57,585 nt of DNA, taken from sequence record MT682705.1, one strand, 5' to 3'. The notes under the pieces are model-generated. The model saw only the letters and a program-made list of their open reading frames with translations. It did no database searches and had not been told where the DNA came from. Origin of the DNA: Escherichia phage vB_EcoS_SP8. Position 1 is the stretch's first letter. Each line of letters begins with the position of its first letter. Below, in pieces: positions 31,268 to 46,411 of this stretch. Both the position numbers and the translations under genes were made by a program.

Positions 31268-33817
31268 ATGCTGGAACTTTTTCCTCAAGAAATTAAACAA
31301 TACGAACAGTGGGCTGTCTGCGGTTTCCATCCAGGTACATCATCAGAAAAACAACCTTATGTATGGGACGATGATTTAGGGGATATGGTCCCACTTCGTA
31401 AAGACGGTAATGATAAGAAACCGTCTAACCTGCATTTACTTATGTCTTTTGAAGATGCTGAACGCTGCATTCGTTATTATAACGAGATTGGCCATAACTT
31501 GCGTTTAGGTTTCTATTTACTTCCAAGTGACCCGTTCTGTTGTATTGACATGGACATTAAAGATACCATGTCTGAAATGGAAAAGAAAGTTGCTGGTGAG
31601 CGATATAAGAAGATTGTTGAATCGTTCCATAGCTATACGGAAATTTCCAGAAGCGGTGATGGGTTGCACACATGGATTTATTCTATCCCTCAAGCTGGTA
31701 AGCGCCGTGATGGTGTGGAAGTGTATTCACAATATCGTTTTATTATCTGTACAGGCGATCACTGGGATGTTACTCCGCGCACTGTGTCTGGTGCTCCAGG
31801 CAGTGAAAGCGAAGGGTATATTGCTAATCTCATTCATCAGCTTATGTCTGAGATGAGTGAGATTAATGAGTCTGATGGCTTCCAAATGCTGGAACTTACT
31901 GAAGAAGATTTTAGTAACGACCCATATGCAATGGAAGATCAGGATGTCTATATTCAGTTGTGTGAACAAGAAAACGGGACATTGTTTAAGCAGCTATGGG
32001 AAGGTCGTTGGAGAGCTGAAGAAGTTGATACTTCTATCGGTGAACGCTGTTTCCCTTCTCAGTCTGAAGCAGAATTTGCATTAATTGACTTTCTTTGCTT
32101 TAAGAGCAAGTATAATTTCCAGGTAAGACGCCTATTCATGTATTCACCAATGAGTAGTCGTTACGATGATTCCCGTCGTCTGCCTGGTGAAAAAATCAAA
32201 CGTCCGTATCACCTGGATAGAATGATTCGTAACTACCGCTATGATGCCCATGTTAAATCTATGGGACTTATGCAGATAGTTCAGAATAACGTTAATGCAG
32301 CTATAGAGCGCACGGAGAAACTGCGTCAAGCAACTACACCAGAACGCCCACCTGAAGAAGTGTTGACCACAGATGGCAATTACACTGAAGAGCAGGCAGA
32401 CGGTTTGGCTTGGCCTCCGGGCTTTATGGGCGAGGTTGCGCGTAACATGTATAAAGCGAGCTTGTTGCCTATTAAAGACATTAGTATTCTGTCTGCTCTT
32501 GCTTTATTTAGTGGTATGTGCGGTAAGGCGTGGAACACAGTCACACGAAGTGGTCTGAATAACTACTTTGTATTAATTGCACGTTCTGGTATTGGTAAAG
32601 AAGCGTTTCGCTCTAACATTGAAACTATTCTTTCTCAAGTATCCAATTATGGCGGCCAGGACGGTCAGCAGATATTTGGTATTGAACGTGTTTTGGATAC
32701 AAGTACCTATGCGTCTGATGCTGCATTGCGCAAGGATGTCATAATGGATACGTCCGTTATGTCTTGTGGCTCATCCATCAACTATAAGACTGAAGTCGGT
32801 GCATTTTTCCGTAACGGTAAGATGGAAGTTGGTAAAGCTAAAGACATTATGGATGAAATGCTTTCCCTTTATGACAAGGGGCATTTCTATGCTTTCTCTG
32901 GTGGTTCAAAACACTCTAGTAAAGATAATACGACTGCTGGAGGTAAGGTTAAGGCGTATAGTTTTGCAGGTGAAACAACACCAGATGAATTTTATGGCAA
33001 CGTAGACGACCGTATGATGTCGAGTGGCTTCATGTCCCGCATTATCGCATGGGAATGTACAGCTAACCGCCCATTGATGAATAAGAGTATGCTCCTGGAA
33101 TATCCAGAAGCAATTCTGCGCACTATTGGAGCTATCTATAAACAAGCTGTGCGCATTATGTCAGGGACTGCCCCATGCTATGTTGAAATGGAAGCAGAGG
33201 TACACGAAGCATTTGATAATCTTGATAATGTTGTTGCGAAGTTCCTGAACAGCGGCAATGATGGTGAGCAGGTACAAGACGAAGTAATTCGTCAGATGTA
33301 CACAAGGAAGGCGTTGAAGGTATTGCGTATCGCTTCTCTTCTTGCTGTAGCGGATAACAGTGAGCGTCCTGTTGTTACTATGGAACATTATCGTTGGGCT
33401 GAGTCATTTATTGATCAGGGTAACGAGCGTTTCTTAGAGAAGCGTAATAGTGGGCAGATTGGGTCTACAGATAGTACCAGTCGTGAGAAAATAATGCTCA
33501 ACTCTATCAAGAAGTTCTTGGATGGGGAAGTTAAAGCTGGTGTGTATAAACGGTTCCCAATGTTTAAGGGCGCGTTTATTGTCACACGGAGTGACTTATG
33601 TACTTATTGTAGACAATTTAAAGCGTTCAAGCAGACAAGAAATGACAACATCTTGCAGGTCATAGACAACACAATTTATGGTTTGATGTCTATGGAAGTT
33701 CTTACTGAAATGAGGCCAATGGACTTTTCAAGTTTCTTCGGTGCAGAGTTTACACCACCGAGGATGAAGTGTTATTTGGTAGACATTGAGAGAATGAACG
33801 AAGTTATTAAGTTATAA
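31268..33817 (+). CDS. DNA primase-polymerase (AEP-like) fused to a helicase-like C-terminal domain
   Basis: 849-aa ORF; N-terminal CCIDMDIKD (DxD) and SGDGLHTW motifs typical of archaeo-eukaryotic primase folds; Walker A-like SGIGKE in the C-terminal half. Confidence 0.55.
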   Translation: MLELFPQEIKQYEQWAVCGFHPGTSSEKQPYVWDDDLGDMVPLRKDGNDKKPSNLHLLMSFEDAERCIRYYNEIGHNLRLGFYLLPSDPFCCIDMDIKDTMSEMEKKVAGERYKKIVESFHSYTEISRSGDGLHTWIYSIPQAGKRRDGVEVYSQYRFIICTGDHWDVTPRTVSGAPGSESEGYIANLIHQLMSEMSEINESDGFQMLELTEEDFSNDPYAMEDQDVYIQLCEQENGTLFKQLWEGRWRAEEVDTSIGERCFPSQSEAEFALIDFLCFKSKYNFQVRRLFMYSPMSSRYDDSRRLPGEKIKRPYHLDRMIRNYRYDAHVKSMGLMQIVQNNVNAAIERTEKLRQATTPERPPEEVLTTDGNYTEEQADGLAWPPGFMGEVARNMYKASLLPIKDISILSALALFSGMCGKAWNTVTRSGLNNYFVLIARSGIGKEAFRSNIETILSQVSNYGGQDGQQIFGIERVLDTSTYASDAALRKDVIMDTSVMSCGSSINYKTEVGAFFRNGKMEVGKAKDIMDEMLSLYDKGHFYAFSGGSKHSSKDNTTAGGKVKAYSFAGETTPDEFYGNVDDRMMSSGFMSRIIAWECTANRPLMNKSMLLEYPEAILRTIGAIYKQAVRIMSGTAPCYVEMEAEVHEAFDNLDNVVAKFLNSGNDGEQVQDEVIRQMYTRKALKVLRIASLLAVADNSERPVVTMEHYRWAESFIDQGNERFLEKRNSGQIGSTDSTSREKIMLNSIKKFLDGEVKAGVYKRFPMFKGAFIVTRSDLCTYCRQFKAFKQTRNDNILQVIDNTIYGLMSMEVLTEMRPMDFSSFFGAEFTPPRMKCYLVDIERMNEVIKL

Positions 33818-33845
33818 AAAATGGGCGCTATATGCGCCAATTATA

Positions 33846-34070
33846 TTATTCGTGCAACTCTAAGAACCCACATACAACGTATTCAAACATCTCGTCGTAA
33901 TCTGGTGTTGAAAAATCTCCAACGTGATACTCATCTTTCTCAAATGTGACCACAGTTGAGGATCCCATATATTCATATTTTATTATCGAACTACCTTGCT
34001 CAAATAAGAATTCCTCTGATTTGTTCATTGCAGTTCTGATGTTTCTTTTTATAAGATCTTGGTGAGTCAT
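33846..34070 (-). CDS. hypothetical protein on the opposite strand within the plus-strand block
   Basis: 74-aa AT-rich ORF with RBS GGAGGAACAC before ATG; flanked downstream by hairpin GGCGC...GCGCC. Confidence 0.4.
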   Translation of the reverse strand: MTHQDLIKRNIRTAMNKSEEFLFEQGSSIIKYEYMGSSTVVTFEKDEYHVGDFSTPDYDEMFEYVVCGFLELHE

Positions 34071-34168
34071 TTTGTGTTCCTCCGCTTACAAACTGTATAA
34101 TACATACTATAGAGCATTTCCTTAGGAATGCAATAGGTATCAAGAATTATTTTACGTCCGAGGGTCAA

Positions 34169-34447
34169 ATGTCCAGTTACAATCTAGCAGCTATTAAAAT
34201 TGTGTACGGTGCTCTATACCAGGATGAGGAGTTCCCAGGCATTGAGCAGGCAATTAAAAGAATCAAGTCTAATCGTGTTGACTCGGAACAACTGTTCGAC
34301 TATGCTTTAGCCATAAGTAAGAACGAGGTCCGTCCTTACTATGAAACGCTGTCACGCCAGTTACGAAGTGTAATAGAAGAACGTGACTTAATGCGGCACT
34401 GTGGATATACCTTCTTAACCGGCAGAGCCATGCGTGTCAGCAAATAA
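34169..34447 (+). CDS. hypothetical protein
   Basis: 92-aa ORF; upstream TATAAT -10-like element. Confidence 0.4.
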   Translation: MSSYNLAAIKIVYGALYQDEEFPGIEQAIKRIKSNRVDSEQLFDYALAISKNEVRPYYETLSRQLRSVIEERDLMRHCGYTFLTGRAMRVSK

Positions 34448-35479: not shown

Positions 35480-35655
35480 GTAAGAAAACCGATATCCGCA
35501 ATCGCAATGCCGCTATCACTGCTTATCGTATGCGGGAGAAAGGTTTTACTTATAACCACATTGCTGAACATCTTGGTAAGAAACCGCATCAAATTAAATC
35601 GCTCATTTTGTTAGGTGAGCGCCTGGAATCTTTAAATGAGGGGACGACACAATGA
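35476..35655 (+). CDS. small putative helix-turn-helix DNA-binding protein
   Basis: 59-codon ORF not in the ORF track; ATG overlaps upstream stop; segment FTYNHIAEHLGKKPHQIKSLIL looks HTH-like. Confidence 0.3.
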   Translation: MSKKTDIRNRNAAITAYRMREKGFTYNHIAEHLGKKPHQIKSLILLGERLESLNEGTTQ

Positions 35656-35921
35656 ATGTAACTGTACGCCAACCTAATAAGAAAGAGAAGGACCTAATGA
35701 TCGGCTTTACTATGCCCGCTCCACTTGTGCATATCGGAGCGTTATTACGCTGCACAAACGCGAACACGCGGCGCTTTACGCATAACTCTGTGTATAGAGT
35801 ACATCGCACTGTACATAACGCCCGTAGCGGCTTAGCTTTGCCTGTTACACGAGACGATTATGGTGAAGAAGTGGTGTGTACGTCTTTATCTTTCGCATTA
35901 GGTCATTGGAAGAAAGTATAG
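35652..35921 (+). CDS. hypothetical protein
   Basis: 89-aa ORF; ATGA overlap with upstream ORF. Confidence 0.35.
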   Translation: MNVTVRQPNKKEKDLMIGFTMPAPLVHIGALLRCTNANTRRFTHNSVYRVHRTVHNARSGLALPVTRDDYGEEVVCTSLSFALGHWKKV

Positions 35922-35927
35922 TGTATT

Positions 35928-36404
35928 ATGGATTGGAATCACTATTTTCAATATAGATGCGGAAAACTTTATTGGAAAATCAATAAAGGACGTTCTAAGG
36001 TAGGTGATGAAGCTGGATATATTCATAAATCACATGGATATATTTGTATCACACTTAATCGTAAGGAGTATTATGCCCACCGCATCATTTGGGAAATGCA
36101 CTATGGGCCAATACCAGAAGGAATGGAAATCGATCATATCTGGCATGATCGTCAAGATAACCGCATTGAGAATTTACGGTTAGTGAGTAAATCAGGTAAT
36201 GCTAGAAATCAGTCTAAGTTTAAGAATAATAGTAGTGGCGTGACTGGTGTCAGTTTTGACAAATCAGTTGGTAAATGGATAGTTCAAATTGGAGTAAATG
36301 GAATTAATAAAACTCTTGGATGTTTCGAAGAGTTTAATAAAGCTGTTGAAATTCGTCGTAAAGCAGAGATTAAATACGGTTATCATGTAAATCATGGTAA
36401 GTAA
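35928..36404 (+). CDS. HNH homing endonuclease with AP2-like DNA-binding domain
   Basis: EIDHIWHDRQDNRIENLRLVSKSGNARN (HNH) followed by SGVTGVSF...KWIVQIGVNG...FEEFNKAVEIRRKAEIKYGY (AP2-like); AT-rich. Confidence 0.6.
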   Translation: MDWNHYFQYRCGKLYWKINKGRSKVGDEAGYIHKSHGYICITLNRKEYYAHRIIWEMHYGPIPEGMEIDHIWHDRQDNRIENLRLVSKSGNARNQSKFKNNSSGVTGVSFDKSVGKWIVQIGVNGINKTLGCFEEFNKAVEIRRKAEIKYGYHVNHGK

Positions 36405-36583
36405 TAGCTGACGAATTCGTGTATTGTAATCAAACACGTAAACAGGTTAACATTATTTGCGAGAGTGGTTGGTAGATTACCCCTTTTCGAAGGCTGTCTC
36501 TCGCTGACATGTTATTATCTATTATATGCTTCGCTTTCTGGGGTACTTGTGTACCCCCTATTTTTTGGATGGAGATTTATAAC

Positions 36584-37045
36584 ATGGGAGCTAATCCTCG
36601 TACCAAAGGTCAAACAGGTGAGCGTGAAATTTGTAAATTCTTTAATGATATCTACGAAGAAGTTTACGCCGCTCTTGGAATGACTTATCCGGAAAAGCCC
36701 ATAGCACAACGTAACCAGAATCAGAGTGCTGTAGGTGGTTGTGATATCACAAATACCTGTTTCTATGCGGTGGAAGTTAAACGCCAGGAACAGTTATCAA
36801 TTAATACATGGTGGGCACAGTGTGTTAAGAGTGCATTAGAAGCAGACAAGTTTCCAGTTCTTATGTACCGTCAGAATAAAAAGCCCTGGCGCGTAGTCCT
36901 GTATATGAACCCTATCATGCTTTTCGCGGATGAAGCGAAACATCACAAAGAAGATCCCCCAAGATGTGAAATATCCCTGGAAGATTTTCGGATAATCTTT
37001 AAATCACATGCTTATGAATATATCAAGAGGAATGGTCACGCTTAG
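36584..37045 (+). CDS. putative PD-(D/E)xK family nuclease
   Basis: GQTGERE ... GGCDITN ... FYAVEVKRQE arrangement resembles E / D / E-x-K catalytic residues; start at ATG (MGANPR). Confidence 0.35.
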   Translation: MGANPRTKGQTGEREICKFFNDIYEEVYAALGMTYPEKPIAQRNQNQSAVGGCDITNTCFYAVEVKRQEQLSINTWWAQCVKSALEADKFPVLMYRQNKKPWRVVLYMNPIMLFADEAKHHKEDPPRCEISLEDFRIIFKSHAYEYIKRNGHA

Positions 37046-45445: not shown

Positions 45446-45457
45446 TTAACTAAAATA

Positions 45458-45486
45458 TTGCATAGTTCTTTTAGAGGGGTTATAGT
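45458..45486 (+). promoter_or_regulatory. candidate sigma70-type promoter
   Basis: TTGCAT, 17-bp spacer, TATAGT; shares the AATATTGCA context with the early promoter at 24769. Confidence 0.5.
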
Positions 45487-45541
45487 GCAACCACTTAGAA
45501 CGTAGTTCACAACCAATAACCACACTGTGAGGATTTAAATC

Positions 45542-46366
45542 ATGGCTAAAGAGAAAACTCCAGAGCAACTGGAAGCAGAAGAAGCAGCAAAGAAAGCAGC
45601 AAAAGAAGCTGAAGCAAAGAAAAAACGTGAAGCTGAAGAAAAAGCAGCACGTGAATTGCAGGCTAAAGTTGATGCCGCAATGAACGAAGCCACTGCCGGT
45701 TACAATGTGATCGAAGGTGTTGTGTCCGCTGTTAAAGAACAGTTTGACACTCTGCACGAAGGTTCGTTGCTGGACGAAGTTAAAGCAGTTGAGAGCGTAG
45801 TTACCGCTCAACTGAAGACCGCTAAAGAAGGTCTGAAAGCTGTTAAAGCAGCAGTACGTAAAGTTAAAGACAACGATCAACTGAAAACTGCCGTTGCAGC
45901 ATCTGAAGATCTGGTTTCCGGTGTTGAAGCCACTCTGAAAGATGTTAAAGGTCGTGTATCCGCTGCCCGCGAAGCCACTAAAGCCGCTGAAAAAGCGAAA
46001 CTTGACGCTGAACGCGCTGAGAAGAAACGTCTGCAGGACGAAGAGCGTGCTCGTAAAGCAGTAGAACGCGAAGCTAAGAAAGAGCCTGAACAGAACGGTA
46101 TTCGCAAGCCTGGTGTTGGTACTCTGTGCCGTGCTGCATGGGATATCTTTGACGCTGTGACCCTGGAGCTGGGTCAGACTGCACCGATCAGCTACGTTCT
46201 GCCTGTTGCACTGGACAAAGGCCTGAACGAAGCGAACGTTAAAGCGGAATATGCTCGCTGGAAGAAATACATGGGCATTACTGGTCGCGTATCCGTTCCA
46301 GTACCTGCTAATATTGCACAAGCGGCCGCTAACGTAGAAATTCCGTCTCAGAAAACTGCAGAGTAA
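45542..46366 (+). CDS. hypothetical Lys/Ala/Glu-rich helical protein, predicted highly expressed
   Basis: own promoter, RBS GAGGA, strong downstream terminator; codon choice biased to CTG, CGT, GGT, GAA, AAA. Confidence 0.5.
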   Translation: MAKEKTPEQLEAEEAAKKAAKEAEAKKKREAEEKAARELQAKVDAAMNEATAGYNVIEGVVSAVKEQFDTLHEGSLLDEVKAVESVVTAQLKTAKEGLKAVKAAVRKVKDNDQLKTAVAASEDLVSGVEATLKDVKGRVSAAREATKAAEKAKLDAERAEKKRLQDEERARKAVEREAKKEPEQNGIRKPGVGTLCRAAWDIFDAVTLELGQTAPISYVLPVALDKGLNEANVKAEYARWKKYMGITGRVSVPVPANIAQAAANVEIPSQKTAE

Positions 46367-46390
46367 TCTGTAGATACTTCGGAAACTCAG

Positions 46391-46411
46391 AAGGGGCATT
46401 TACTGCCCCTT
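46391..46411 (+). terminator. rho-independent terminator
   Basis: stem AAGGGGCA / TGCCCCTT with 5-nt loop followed by TGTT. Confidence 0.55.

What the first reader, a model, noticed from the sequence alone, without database searches (positions are those of the whole stretch)
33846..34070. Opposite-strand AT-rich gene inserted in the plus-strand replication block
A 74-aa ORF with a strong RBS (GGAGGA) runs against the direction of all neighbouring genes, between the primase-polymerase gene and the next plus-strand gene, and is bracketed by a hairpin. Its composition is AT-rich. This has the hallmarks of an independently transcribed moron.
Basis: seen in the sequence. Interest (0 to 1): 0.5.

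Follow-up and report, generated by a model that had tools for sequence, protein, structure and literature searches.

The report
Conserved reversed small acidic phage gene
This is a real small gene of 9g-like coliphages with its own start and stop signals, pointing against its 45 neighbours and encoding a very acidic 74-residue protein of unknown function, but it is an old fixed part of the genome, not a recent insertion.

Summary
The window is a Nonagvirus (phage 9g-like) genome. ORF 33846-34070(-) has 74 codons, with GGAGGA 7 nt before the ATG and a GC hairpin with a U-tract at its 3' end. It is the only reversed gene in the 46-gene early/replication block. It is the already annotated hypothetical gene 9g gp24 (phrog_17131).

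The frame is under purifying selection (pN/pS 0.19; above 1 in the other frames). A sigma-70-type promoter (TTGCAT-N16-TATAGT) and the terminator are conserved into a sister clade whose protein is only about 30% identical.

The "moron" reading is only half right. The gene looks like an autonomous transcription unit. But it is present in all 17 GenBank and 9 IMG/VR Nonagvirus genomes. Similar small acidic reversed genes occupy the same position in Seuratvirus, Vidquintavirus and Craquatrovirus. Its AT-richness is modest (6th lowest GC of 71 genes).

The protein (pI 4.6) is confidently predicted (pLDDT 90) as a compact alpha-beta5-alpha fold with no convincing structural or sequence relative. 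It carries a two-allele beta-hairpin segment, evolves faster than its neighbours, and has been frameshifted three independent times.

Best inference, at low to moderate confidence: a dispensable protein-binding inhibitor of a host or defence protein. Interest is modest.

The parts
33846..34070 (-). Protein-coding gene, 74 aa, orthologue of phage 9g gp24 (phrog_17131). Product has pI 4.6 and net charge about -9, with a predicted alpha-beta5-alpha fold.
   Evidence: ORF; phrog_17131 E 2.1e-49 over the full length; pN/pS 0.19 in frame; AF2 pLDDT 90.2; charge.
34078..34083 (-). Shine-Dalgarno GGAGGA, 7 nt upstream of the ATG.
   Evidence: Sequence; invariant in 13 Nonagvirus genomes; G(A/G)GGA retained in the sister clade.
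34106..34133 (-). Predicted sigma-70 promoter of the small gene. The -35 TTGCAT is at 34133-34128, followed by a 16-nt spacer and the -10 TATAGT at 34111-34106. Predicted start is near 34099.
   Evidence: Read from sequence. It falls below the scan's threshold because the -35 matches only 3 of 6. TTGCA and TATA(G/A/C)T at identical spacing are conserved in the sister clade. The -10 and leader are alignable in Seuratvirus and Vid5. The start site is not mapped.
34072..34101 (+). Predicted restart promoter for the downstream plus-strand genes. The -35 TTGTGT is at 34072-34077, followed by an 18-nt spacer and the -10 TATAAT at 34096-34101. Predicted start is near 34108. Together with the minus-strand promoter it forms a bidirectional promoter with starts about 9-10 bp apart.
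   Evidence: Sequence. The opposite-strand -10 (TATAAT/TATACT) is conserved in the sister clade. The whole 98-bp spacer is nearly invariant in 13 genomes. The 10-bp class of bidirectional promoters is described in PMC12825309. Inferred, not measured.
33816..33845 (.). Bidirectional intrinsic terminator shared by the primase gene (+) and the small gene (-). The stem-loop is at 33824-33838, with an A6 tract on its plus-strand 5' side (read as U6 after the stem on the minus strand) and a U-rich tail on the plus strand.
   Evidence: Scan hits on both strands; fold; annotated as a terminator in HdSG1 and HdK1; analogous hairpins of different sequence in L038, SHIN8, Vid5 and PSTCR4.
33972..34010 (-). 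Two-allele segment, residues about 21-33 (end of beta1, turn, beta2). The short allele FLFEQGSSIIKY is in this window, BRET and JenP2. The long allele FSHNCTDGTHKIRY (+2 aa) is in the other ten genomes.
   Evidence: Alignments. Between alleles pN is 0.355 and pS 0.558. Within each allele pN/pS is 0.08 or lower. Secondary structure.
33964..33966 (-). G3 run where a +1 G frameshift has arisen independently in two allele backgrounds (Bas20; Logan ERR11534445).
33911..33915 (-). T5 run where a -1 T frameshift is found in ENA assemblies (variant P0005, seen on 6 contigs).

Best explanation
**What it is.** A genuine, ancient small gene (9g gp24 family). It is fixed in Nonagvirus and in an uncultured sister clade.

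**How it is expressed (inferred).**
- It is its own monocistronic unit on the strand opposite to the early/replication operons.
- Host RNA polymerase starts at a TTGCAT-N16-TATAGT promoter.
- The -10 box of that promoter interlocks with the TATAAT of the promoter that restarts plus-strand transcription after the primase terminator. Polymerase can therefore load in either direction from one AT-rich core.
- Translation uses a strong GGAGGA site.
- Transcription stops at a hairpin that also terminates the primase gene.

**What the product does (inferred).** The product is a 74-residue, very acidic, compact alpha-beta5-alpha protein with no enzymatic, membrane or DNA-binding signature. The most likely mechanism is stoichiometric binding and inhibition of a host protein, either a defence component or a housekeeping target found in Enterobacterales. 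The variable beta1-beta2 hairpin and the invariant acidic-aromatic T-x-DYD-x-MF patch would form the interaction surface. The gene is dispensable for plaque growth on laboratory hosts.

**Shown versus inferred.**
- Shown here: the gene is real, constrained, conserved and confidently foldable.
- Inferred: promoter use, early timing and the inhibitor function.
For: **Real, constrained gene.** pN/pS is 0.19 in frame against above 1 out of frame. It is present in all 26 Nonagvirus genomes and contigs. A homologue exists in the sister clade (BLASTP E 9e-6 over the full length; about 20 clusters).

**Expression signals.** They are conserved across clades. The spacer is almost invariant while the coding region varies. 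The terminator is conserved in form, not sequence.

**Protein-binding inhibitor.**
- Net charge is about -9 and pI 4.6, the most acidic per residue of 25 small proteins in this genome.
- All positional counterparts in other genera are also small and acidic, pI 4.2-4.9.
- It evolves faster than its neighbours: 82-96% amino-acid identity against 93-100% for the adjacent genes.
- It has two old alleles of a surface hairpin, each conserved within itself.
- Three independent frameshifts occur in otherwise complete phages, including Bas20, which is in routine laboratory use.
- The position is occupied in phages of Enterobacterales and empty in the Pseudomonas, Stenotrophomonas, Acinetobacter and Vibrio relatives examined.
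Against: - There is no direct evidence of any partner or phenotype.
- Published data on Bas19 (intact gene) and Bas20 (frameshifted) show no reported difference that could be assigned to this gene.
- Acidity and small size are common among phage early proteins of many functions (one search lists others).
- The promoter matches are weak by consensus (the -35 matches 3 of 6), and the generic scan found no excess of promoter-like sites.
- Constant adjacency to the primase gene could instead mean a replication-linked role.
- The frameshifts lie in homopolymer runs, so some could be assembly errors. Against that, one is seen on 6 contigs.
Confidence: 0.4

Rival explanations
1. A recently acquired moron. 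This would be a foreign AT-rich gene with its own promoter and terminator, inserted between the primase gene and the next gene, and variably present among relatives.
For: The unit has an autonomous promoter, SD and terminator. GC is 0.351 against 0.433 for the genome. More distant relatives (Nipunavirus, Siaravirus, HD01, BA3) have nothing at this position.
Against: The gene is present in every Nonagvirus genome examined and in the sister clade. The position is filled in three further genera, with an alignable promoter and leader in two of them, Seuratvirus and Vidquintavirus. Its composition is matched by neighbouring plus-strand genes. No homologue was found outside these phages among 5.8 billion proteins. 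The phage is virulent (PMC4276943).
Confidence: 0.08
2. A replication accessory factor. The small acidic protein would bind the AEP-type primase-helicase encoded next to it, for example to modulate loading or activity or to shield it from defence sensors. That would explain the constant adjacency.
For: A small reversed gene lies immediately after the primase gene in five clades whose primases are only 30-52% identical. Helicases of phage families that include Nonagvirus are reported as triggers of a retron defence (PMC12746101, seen; I read only the abstract).
Against: Homologous primases in Nipunavirus, Siaravirus, HD01 and BA3 function without such a neighbour. Frameshifted variants are viable. 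Adjacency may simply reflect overall synteny and the operon boundary at this point.
Confidence: 0.15
3. A small transcription regulator. It would bind the near-invariant spacer, for example the imperfect palindrome GCATTTCCTTAGGAATGC at 34114-34131, to autoregulate and to control the divergent plus-strand operon.
For: - The gene pair is divergent and shares an almost invariant 98-bp spacer.
- The palindrome lies in the spacer of the minus-strand promoter, just downstream of the predicted plus-strand start.
- The Seuratvirus counterpart has a weak AP2 (DNA-binding) match, E 1.3e-3, below the Pfam cut-off.
Confidence: 0.1
4. The main role is in cis. Leftward transcription from the shared core competes with the rightward restart promoter to tune expression of the downstream operon, and the peptide is secondary.
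For: The -10 boxes interlock, with predicted starts about 9-10 bp apart. RNA polymerase competition at such bidirectional promoters is documented in E. coli (PMC12825309).
Against: The protein sequence itself is under purifying selection, and the fold is confidently predicted. The same paper reports that basal activity of the bidirectional promoters it tested is too low for competition.
Confidence: 0.05

Closest known systems
Phage 9g gp24 / JenK1 gp57 / PHROG phrog_17131 (annotated hypothetical proteins)
   Same: Orthologous. Amino-acid identity is 82-96% with the same position and orientation.
   Different: Nothing of substance. This window carries the rarer 74-aa allele of the central segment. 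No function has been published.
Morons of lambdoid phages: extra genes with their own promoter and terminator between conserved genes. The concept is taken from my own knowledge of the HK97/lambda comparative literature.
   Same: A single gene flanked by a sigma-70-type promoter and an intrinsic terminator, somewhat AT-rich, lying between genes of another transcription unit.
   Different: It is not variably present. It is conserved for as long as the genus and its sister clade have existed. It is in a virulent phage, so there is no lysogen in which to express it. It shares its promoter core and its terminator with the flanking operons instead of bringing separate ones.
Small acidic phage or plasmid inhibitor proteins: T7 gp1.2 (dGTPase inhibitor), AcrIIA11, PsiB, and toxin immunity proteins such as TriTu
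Bacterial bidirectional promoters (PMC12825309 and work cited there)
   Same: There are two -10 hexamers on opposite strands of one AT-rich core, with predicted divergent starts about 9-10 bp apart. The paper lists 10 bp as a common spacing. Each -35 lies in the other transcript's leader.
   Different: The starts are predicted, not mapped. One arm drives a single small gene that ends 250 bp away at a shared terminator. It is in a phage genome whose DNA carries deazaguanine modification.
Free-standing AP2-like small proteins (the Seuratvirus counterpart in this position) and YkuJ/DUF1797

Membership tests
phrog_17131 / 9g gp24 family | Full-length profile match | tested here: met
   hmmscan E 2.1e-49, residues 1-74 against profile positions 1-76 of 76. 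tblastn identity is 82-96% to 17 Nonagvirus records.
Moron | Own promoter and own terminator flanking a single gene | tested here: met
   TTGCAT-N16-TATAGT and a GC hairpin with U6 are present, and both are conserved across clades. This is sequence evidence only. Transcription was not measured.
Moron | Present in some and absent from other closely related, otherwise syntenic genomes | tested here: not met
   Present in 17 of 17 GenBank and 9 of 9 IMG/VR Nonagvirus genomes and in the sister clade. Absent only in relatives whose primase is 30% identical or less.
Moron | Composition distinct from the surrounding genome | tested here: inconclusive
   GC is 0.351 against 0.433, ranking 6th lowest of 71 genes. 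Plus-strand neighbours at 0.35-0.38 are similar.
Moron | Expressed from a prophage to the benefit of the lysogen | not testable with these tools
   No integrase has been reported for 9g, which is described as virulent or pseudolysogenic (PMC4276943). No expression data exist.
AP2 DNA-binding domain (PF00847) | Profile match at or near the Pfam gathering score; three-stranded sheet followed by a helix | tested here: not met
Known anti-defence / DNA-mimic proteins (Ocr, ArdA, Acr families) | Sequence or structural homology to a characterised member | tested here: not met
Known anti-defence / DNA-mimic proteins | Binds and inhibits a defined host protein | not testable with these tools
   This requires pull-down, genetic or structural experiments.
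Bidirectional promoter (10-bp class) | Opposite-strand -10 hexamers arranged so that divergent starts lie about 10 bp apart | tested here: met
   TATAAT is at 34096-34101 (+) and TATAGT at 34111-34106 (-), giving predicted starts at 34108 and 34099. Both hexamers are conserved in the sister clade. The class is defined in PMC12825309.
Bidirectional promoter (10-bp class) | Mapped divergent transcription start sites | not testable with these tools
   No transcriptome of any Nonagvirus was found.
Bidirectional intrinsic terminator | GC-rich stem-loop flanked by an A-tract and a T-tract | tested here: met
   The sequence is A6-T-G-GGCGC-TATAT-GCGCC followed by AATTATATTATT. The scan scores it on both strands. 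The stem is 6 bp in relatives and 5 bp here because of a G-to-T change. The plus-strand tail is U-rich but is not a clean U-run.

The most novel reading that the evidence does not exclude
The position directly behind the primase gene may be a conserved expression cassette: a bidirectional promoter, an alignable leader, an SD with ACAAAATG, and a shared bidirectional terminator. Inside it the coding body turns over. Within Nonagvirus it exists as two old alleles of a surface hairpin. Between genera the proteins can no longer be aligned, yet all are 59-97 aa with pI 4.2-4.9. This cassette is found in Queuovirinae-like siphophages of Enterobacterales. On this reading it would be a dedicated counter-defence or host-takeover locus, and the Nonagvirus protein would be a new inhibitor family with a previously undescribed fold and an Enterobacterales-specific target.
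Probability: 0.22. Interest if true: 0.6.

Novelty: new member of a known kind. Interest (0 to 1): 0.3.

Why it matters
If the inhibitor reading is right, this would be a new counter-defence or host-takeover protein family, and one that is easy to test. It sits in phages already used in defence-system panels (BASEL Bas19 and Bas20), and Bas20 is a natural frameshift mutant. The interlocked promoter core and shared terminator are a compact example of how a virulent phage places one opposite-strand gene at an operon boundary. For annotation, the practical lessons are these:
- The gene is real and should be called as a single 74-76-aa CDS. It is split into two CDSs in the Bas19 and Bas20 records.
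- It is not evidence of recent horizontal acquisition.

Tried and rejected
1. **Exhaustive HMMER search of 1.84 billion representatives.** Beyond the family itself, the hits were long FG-GAP repeat proteins and one zinc-ribbon repeat protein. They matched through a short repeated motif, WHIGDFNGDGKDDIFRY against YHVGDFSTPDYDEMFEY. I rejected them as repeat-inflated chance matches.
3. **Homology between the Nonagvirus family and the Vid5, Seuratvirus and PSTCR4 counterparts.** BLASTP, a local HMM search against 2633 ORFs, and hhalign were all non-significant. A shared Y-x-V-G-[DE]-x-F-x-T-DYD motif with Vid5 remains only a hint.
4. **Replication origin.** I found no iterons or meaningful repeats in 33700-34300.
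5. **Known RNA families.** None matched.
6. **Protein libraries.** PADLOC, NCBIfam, Pfam and a PDB sequence profile gave nothing.
7. **Generic promoter scan.** It showed no enrichment over shuffles, so it is uninformative on its own. The alternative minus-strand promoter it flagged (TGGACA-N18-AATAAT, 34175-34146) is not conserved in the sister clade.
8. **Literature.** I found no transcriptome or functional data for this gene. Bas19 and Bas20 behave alike in the one study that reports both.
9. **Functional link to the divergent 92-aa neighbour (34169-34447, called "protease" in some records).** It co-occurs in the sister clade but has no detectable homologue in Vid5, SHIN8 or PSTCR4. Its Pfam and NCBIfam searches gave nothing credible.

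Full report
**Identity of the window**

The 2 kb around the finding matches 17 GenBank phage records at 93-95% nucleotide identity. All are Nonagvirus (phage 9g, JenK1, JenP1, JenP2, BRET, HdK1, HdSG1, SE1, Bas19, Bas20 and others; Queuovirinae). The window has a minus-strand structural block (about 1000-24300) and a plus-strand early/replication block (about 24500-55100).

**Observation check**

- The ORF at 33846-34070(-) exists: ATG start, 74 codons, TAA stop.
- GGAGGA lies 7 nt before the ATG.
- In the RefSeq annotation of JenK1, all 46 genes of the early block (gp29-gp74) are on one strand except gp57, the orthologue of this ORF. A longer minus-strand ORF in the window (45446-46399) is an antisense shadow of a plus-strand gene.
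- There is one hairpin, at the 3' end. GGCGC-TATAT-GCGCC (33824-33838) fills most of the 28 nt between the primase stop and the ORF stop, and it scores as terminator-like on both strands. Its energy alone is not exceptional.
- GC is 0.351 against 0.433, the 6th lowest of 71 genes. Several plus-strand neighbours have similar values.

**It is a real gene**

- It matches phrog_17131 over its full length (E 2e-49).
- It is annotated as a hypothetical protein in every relative, for example 9g gp24.
- In a 13-genome codon alignment, pN/pS is 0.19 in the ORF's frame and 1.2-1.6 in the other two frames. Of the variable columns, 35 of 61 are third codon positions.

**It is not a recent insertion**

- tblastn finds it in 17 of 17 Nonagvirus records and nowhere else among 50,697 phage records. 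IMG/VR adds 9 more contigs.
- A search of 5.8 billion proteins finds only the same phages.
- A contig whose primase is 52% identical (L038) carries a 97-aa reversed ORF in the same place. It aligns end to end with the window protein (28% identity, E 9e-6).
- A profile search then recovers about 20 clusters of this 95-97-aa form, all on roughly 60-kb phage contigs with the same gene order.
- Further out, Seuratvirus (SHIN8, SD04), Vidquintavirus Vid5 and Craquatrovirus PSTCR4 each have one small reversed gene (59-74 aa) directly after the primase gene, followed by a GC hairpin with flanking A/T tracts.
- Nipunavirus JG054, Siara, Acinetobacter phage HD01 and Vibrio phage BA3 have none.
- By contrast, the HNH endonuclease gene at 35928-36404 in this window is missing from all 17 relatives. 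That is what a real insertion polymorphism looks like in this block.

**Expression signals**

The 98-bp spacer between the small gene and the next plus-strand gene (34071-34168) is almost invariant in 13 genomes, more so than the coding sequence. Read on the minus strand it contains TTGCAT (34133-34128), a 16-nt spacer and TATAGT (34111-34106).

In the sister clade the corresponding boxes are TTGCAA-N16-TATAAT or TATACT, at the same spacing. The SD and the ACAAAATGAC start context are also conserved, while the sequence between these islands has diverged. The -10 box, an ATAAACA-type leader, GGAGGA and ACAAAATG can also be aligned in Seuratvirus and Vid5.

On the plus strand a perfect TATAAT (34096-34101) lies 4 bp from the minus-strand -10 box. 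It is likewise conserved (TATACT or TATAAT) in the sister clade. With the usual 7-nt distance from -10 to start, the predicted starts are about 34099 (-) and 34108 (+). They are divergent and 9-10 bp apart. That corresponds to one of the common spacings of bacterial bidirectional promoters, at which RNA polymerase can bind in either orientation but not both at once (PMC12825309).

The -35 matches are weak, the generic scan is uninformative, and no Nonagvirus transcriptome was found. All of this is therefore inference supported by phylogenetic footprinting.

The terminator is conserved in form but not in sequence across five clades, which argues for function. It is also annotated as a terminator in two GenBank records.

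**The protein**

- Net charge is about -9 and pI 4.6. It is the most acidic per residue of the 25 small proteins of this genome.
- With a 26-sequence alignment AlphaFold gives pLDDT 90.2 and pTM 0.75. The elements are helix 3-14, strands 16-22, 27-34, 37-44, 47-50 and 53-55, and helix 58-73.
- In BFVD only the sister-clade homologue passes E 1e-3.
- Pfam, NCBIfam, PADLOC and a PDB sequence profile give nothing.
- The exhaustive HMMER search yields only repeat-inflated FG-GAP matches.
- Residues invariant across both clades include K17, E19, E44 and a T-x-DYD-x-MF motif at the start of the C-terminal helix.

**Evolutionary behaviour**

- Among Nonagvirus genomes the protein is 82-96% identical, while the flanking proteins are 93-100% identical.
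- Most of that difference lies in one segment, residues about 21-33 (the beta1-turn-beta2 region). It exists as two alleles: FLFEQGSSIIKY (74-aa form, found here and in BRET and JenP2) and FSHNCTDGTHKIRY (76-aa form).
- Between the alleles pN is 0.355 and pS 0.558. Within each allele pN/pS is 0.08 or lower. These are old alternative versions of a surface hairpin, exchanged by recombination.
- Three independent frameshifts occur in otherwise complete genomes. A +1 G at the G3 run (33964-33966) is found in Bas20 (long allele) and in a Logan assembly (short allele). A -1 T at the T5 run (33911-33915) is seen on six ENA contigs.
- Bas20 is used routinely, so the gene is dispensable on laboratory hosts, provided these frameshifts are not assembly errors.

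**Relation to the counterparts in other genera**

All are small and acidic, with pI 4.2-4.9. BLASTP, a local HMM search and hhalign give no significant similarity between the Nonagvirus family and the Vid5, Seuratvirus or PSTCR4 proteins. The Seuratvirus protein has a sub-threshold AP2 match. The window protein has none.

Whether these are extremely diverged orthologues or replacements inside a conserved expression cassette remains open.

**Mechanism**

The best-supported reading has three parts:
- The gene is a monocistronic unit driven by host polymerase from one arm of a bidirectional promoter at an operon boundary.
- The unit is closed by a terminator shared with the primase gene.
- It produces a small acidic protein that acts by binding another protein, most plausibly a host or defence protein specific to Enterobacterales.

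The features behind this reading are acidity, an orphan fold, rapid evolution, the two-allele surface hairpin, dispensability, and the host distribution of the occupied position. These are typical of such inhibitors but do not prove it.

The rival explanations are:
- a partner of the neighbouring primase-helicase;
- a DNA-binding regulator of the shared spacer, which the charge disfavours;
- a mainly cis-acting promoter-competition role, which purifying selection on the protein disfavours;

**Verdict**

The gene is already annotated as hypothetical, and its kind (a small accessory early protein with its own signals) is familiar. Only the function and the possible cassette logic are new, and both are unproven. 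Interest is modest.

Noticed in passing
window 35928-36404 (+): An HNH endonuclease gene (HNH_3 E 1e-23, plus a weak AP2 tail), GC 0.346, lies between 35652-35921 and the RusA-like gene at 36509-37045. It is absent from all 17 GenBank Nonagvirus records: a 1501-nt query is covered only 63%, in two pieces spanning about 1031 bp. This is a genuine insertion polymorphism and probably a homing endonuclease.
   Followed up: partly
window 34071-34168: The 98-bp spacer is nearly invariant in 13 genomes and more conserved than the flanking coding sequence. It contains interlocked opposite-strand -10 boxes and an imperfect palindrome, GCATTTCCTTAGGAATGC (34114-34131), that is unique in the window. The sister clade has a different inverted repeat at the same place in L038, but a weaker one in L056. 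It could be an operator or a 5' hairpin of the plus-strand mRNA.
   Followed up: partly
window 33964-33966 and 33911-33915 (minus-strand G3 and T5 runs): Recurrent frameshifts inactivate the small gene. A +1 G occurs independently in Bas20 and in Logan ERR11534445. A -1 T occurs in ENA ERZ24909961 and five other contigs.
   Followed up: yes
L005 1428-1717 (Bas19) and L006 1428-1732 (Bas20): The BASEL records annotate this locus as two short CDSs. In Bas19 the 76-aa frame is intact (locus 1501-1731), so the split there is an annotation artefact. In Bas20 it reflects the frameshift.
   Followed up: yes
L038 (IMGVR_UViG_3300033072_000248) and L056 (Logan SRR17866111_3): An uncultured sister clade of Nonagvirus has roughly 60-kb genomes and a primase 52% identical to this one. 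No record with intermediate primase identity (60-80%) was found in the GenBank phage collection searched. It carries 95-97-aa homologues of the small gene and of the 92-aa neighbour.
   Followed up: partly
L009 1760-3228 (HdK1) and L011 1760-3228 (SE1): The primase gene is annotated as two CDSs split at the same point in HdK1 and SE1, whereas it is a single 849-aa ORF in this window. This may be a frameshift or a sequencing difference. I did not examine it.
   Followed up: no
window 45446-46399 (-): A 317-aa minus-strand ORF overlaps the plus-strand 274-aa gene at 45542-46366 (the JenK1 gp37 orthologue). It is most likely a spurious antisense ORF.
   Followed up: partly
window 34169-34447 (+): The divergent 92-aa neighbour is called "protease" or "cysteine protease, calpain domain" in several records and in PHROGs. 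It has no credible Pfam or NCBIfam match here (best E 0.011, below cut-off), so the name looks unsupported.
   Followed up: partly
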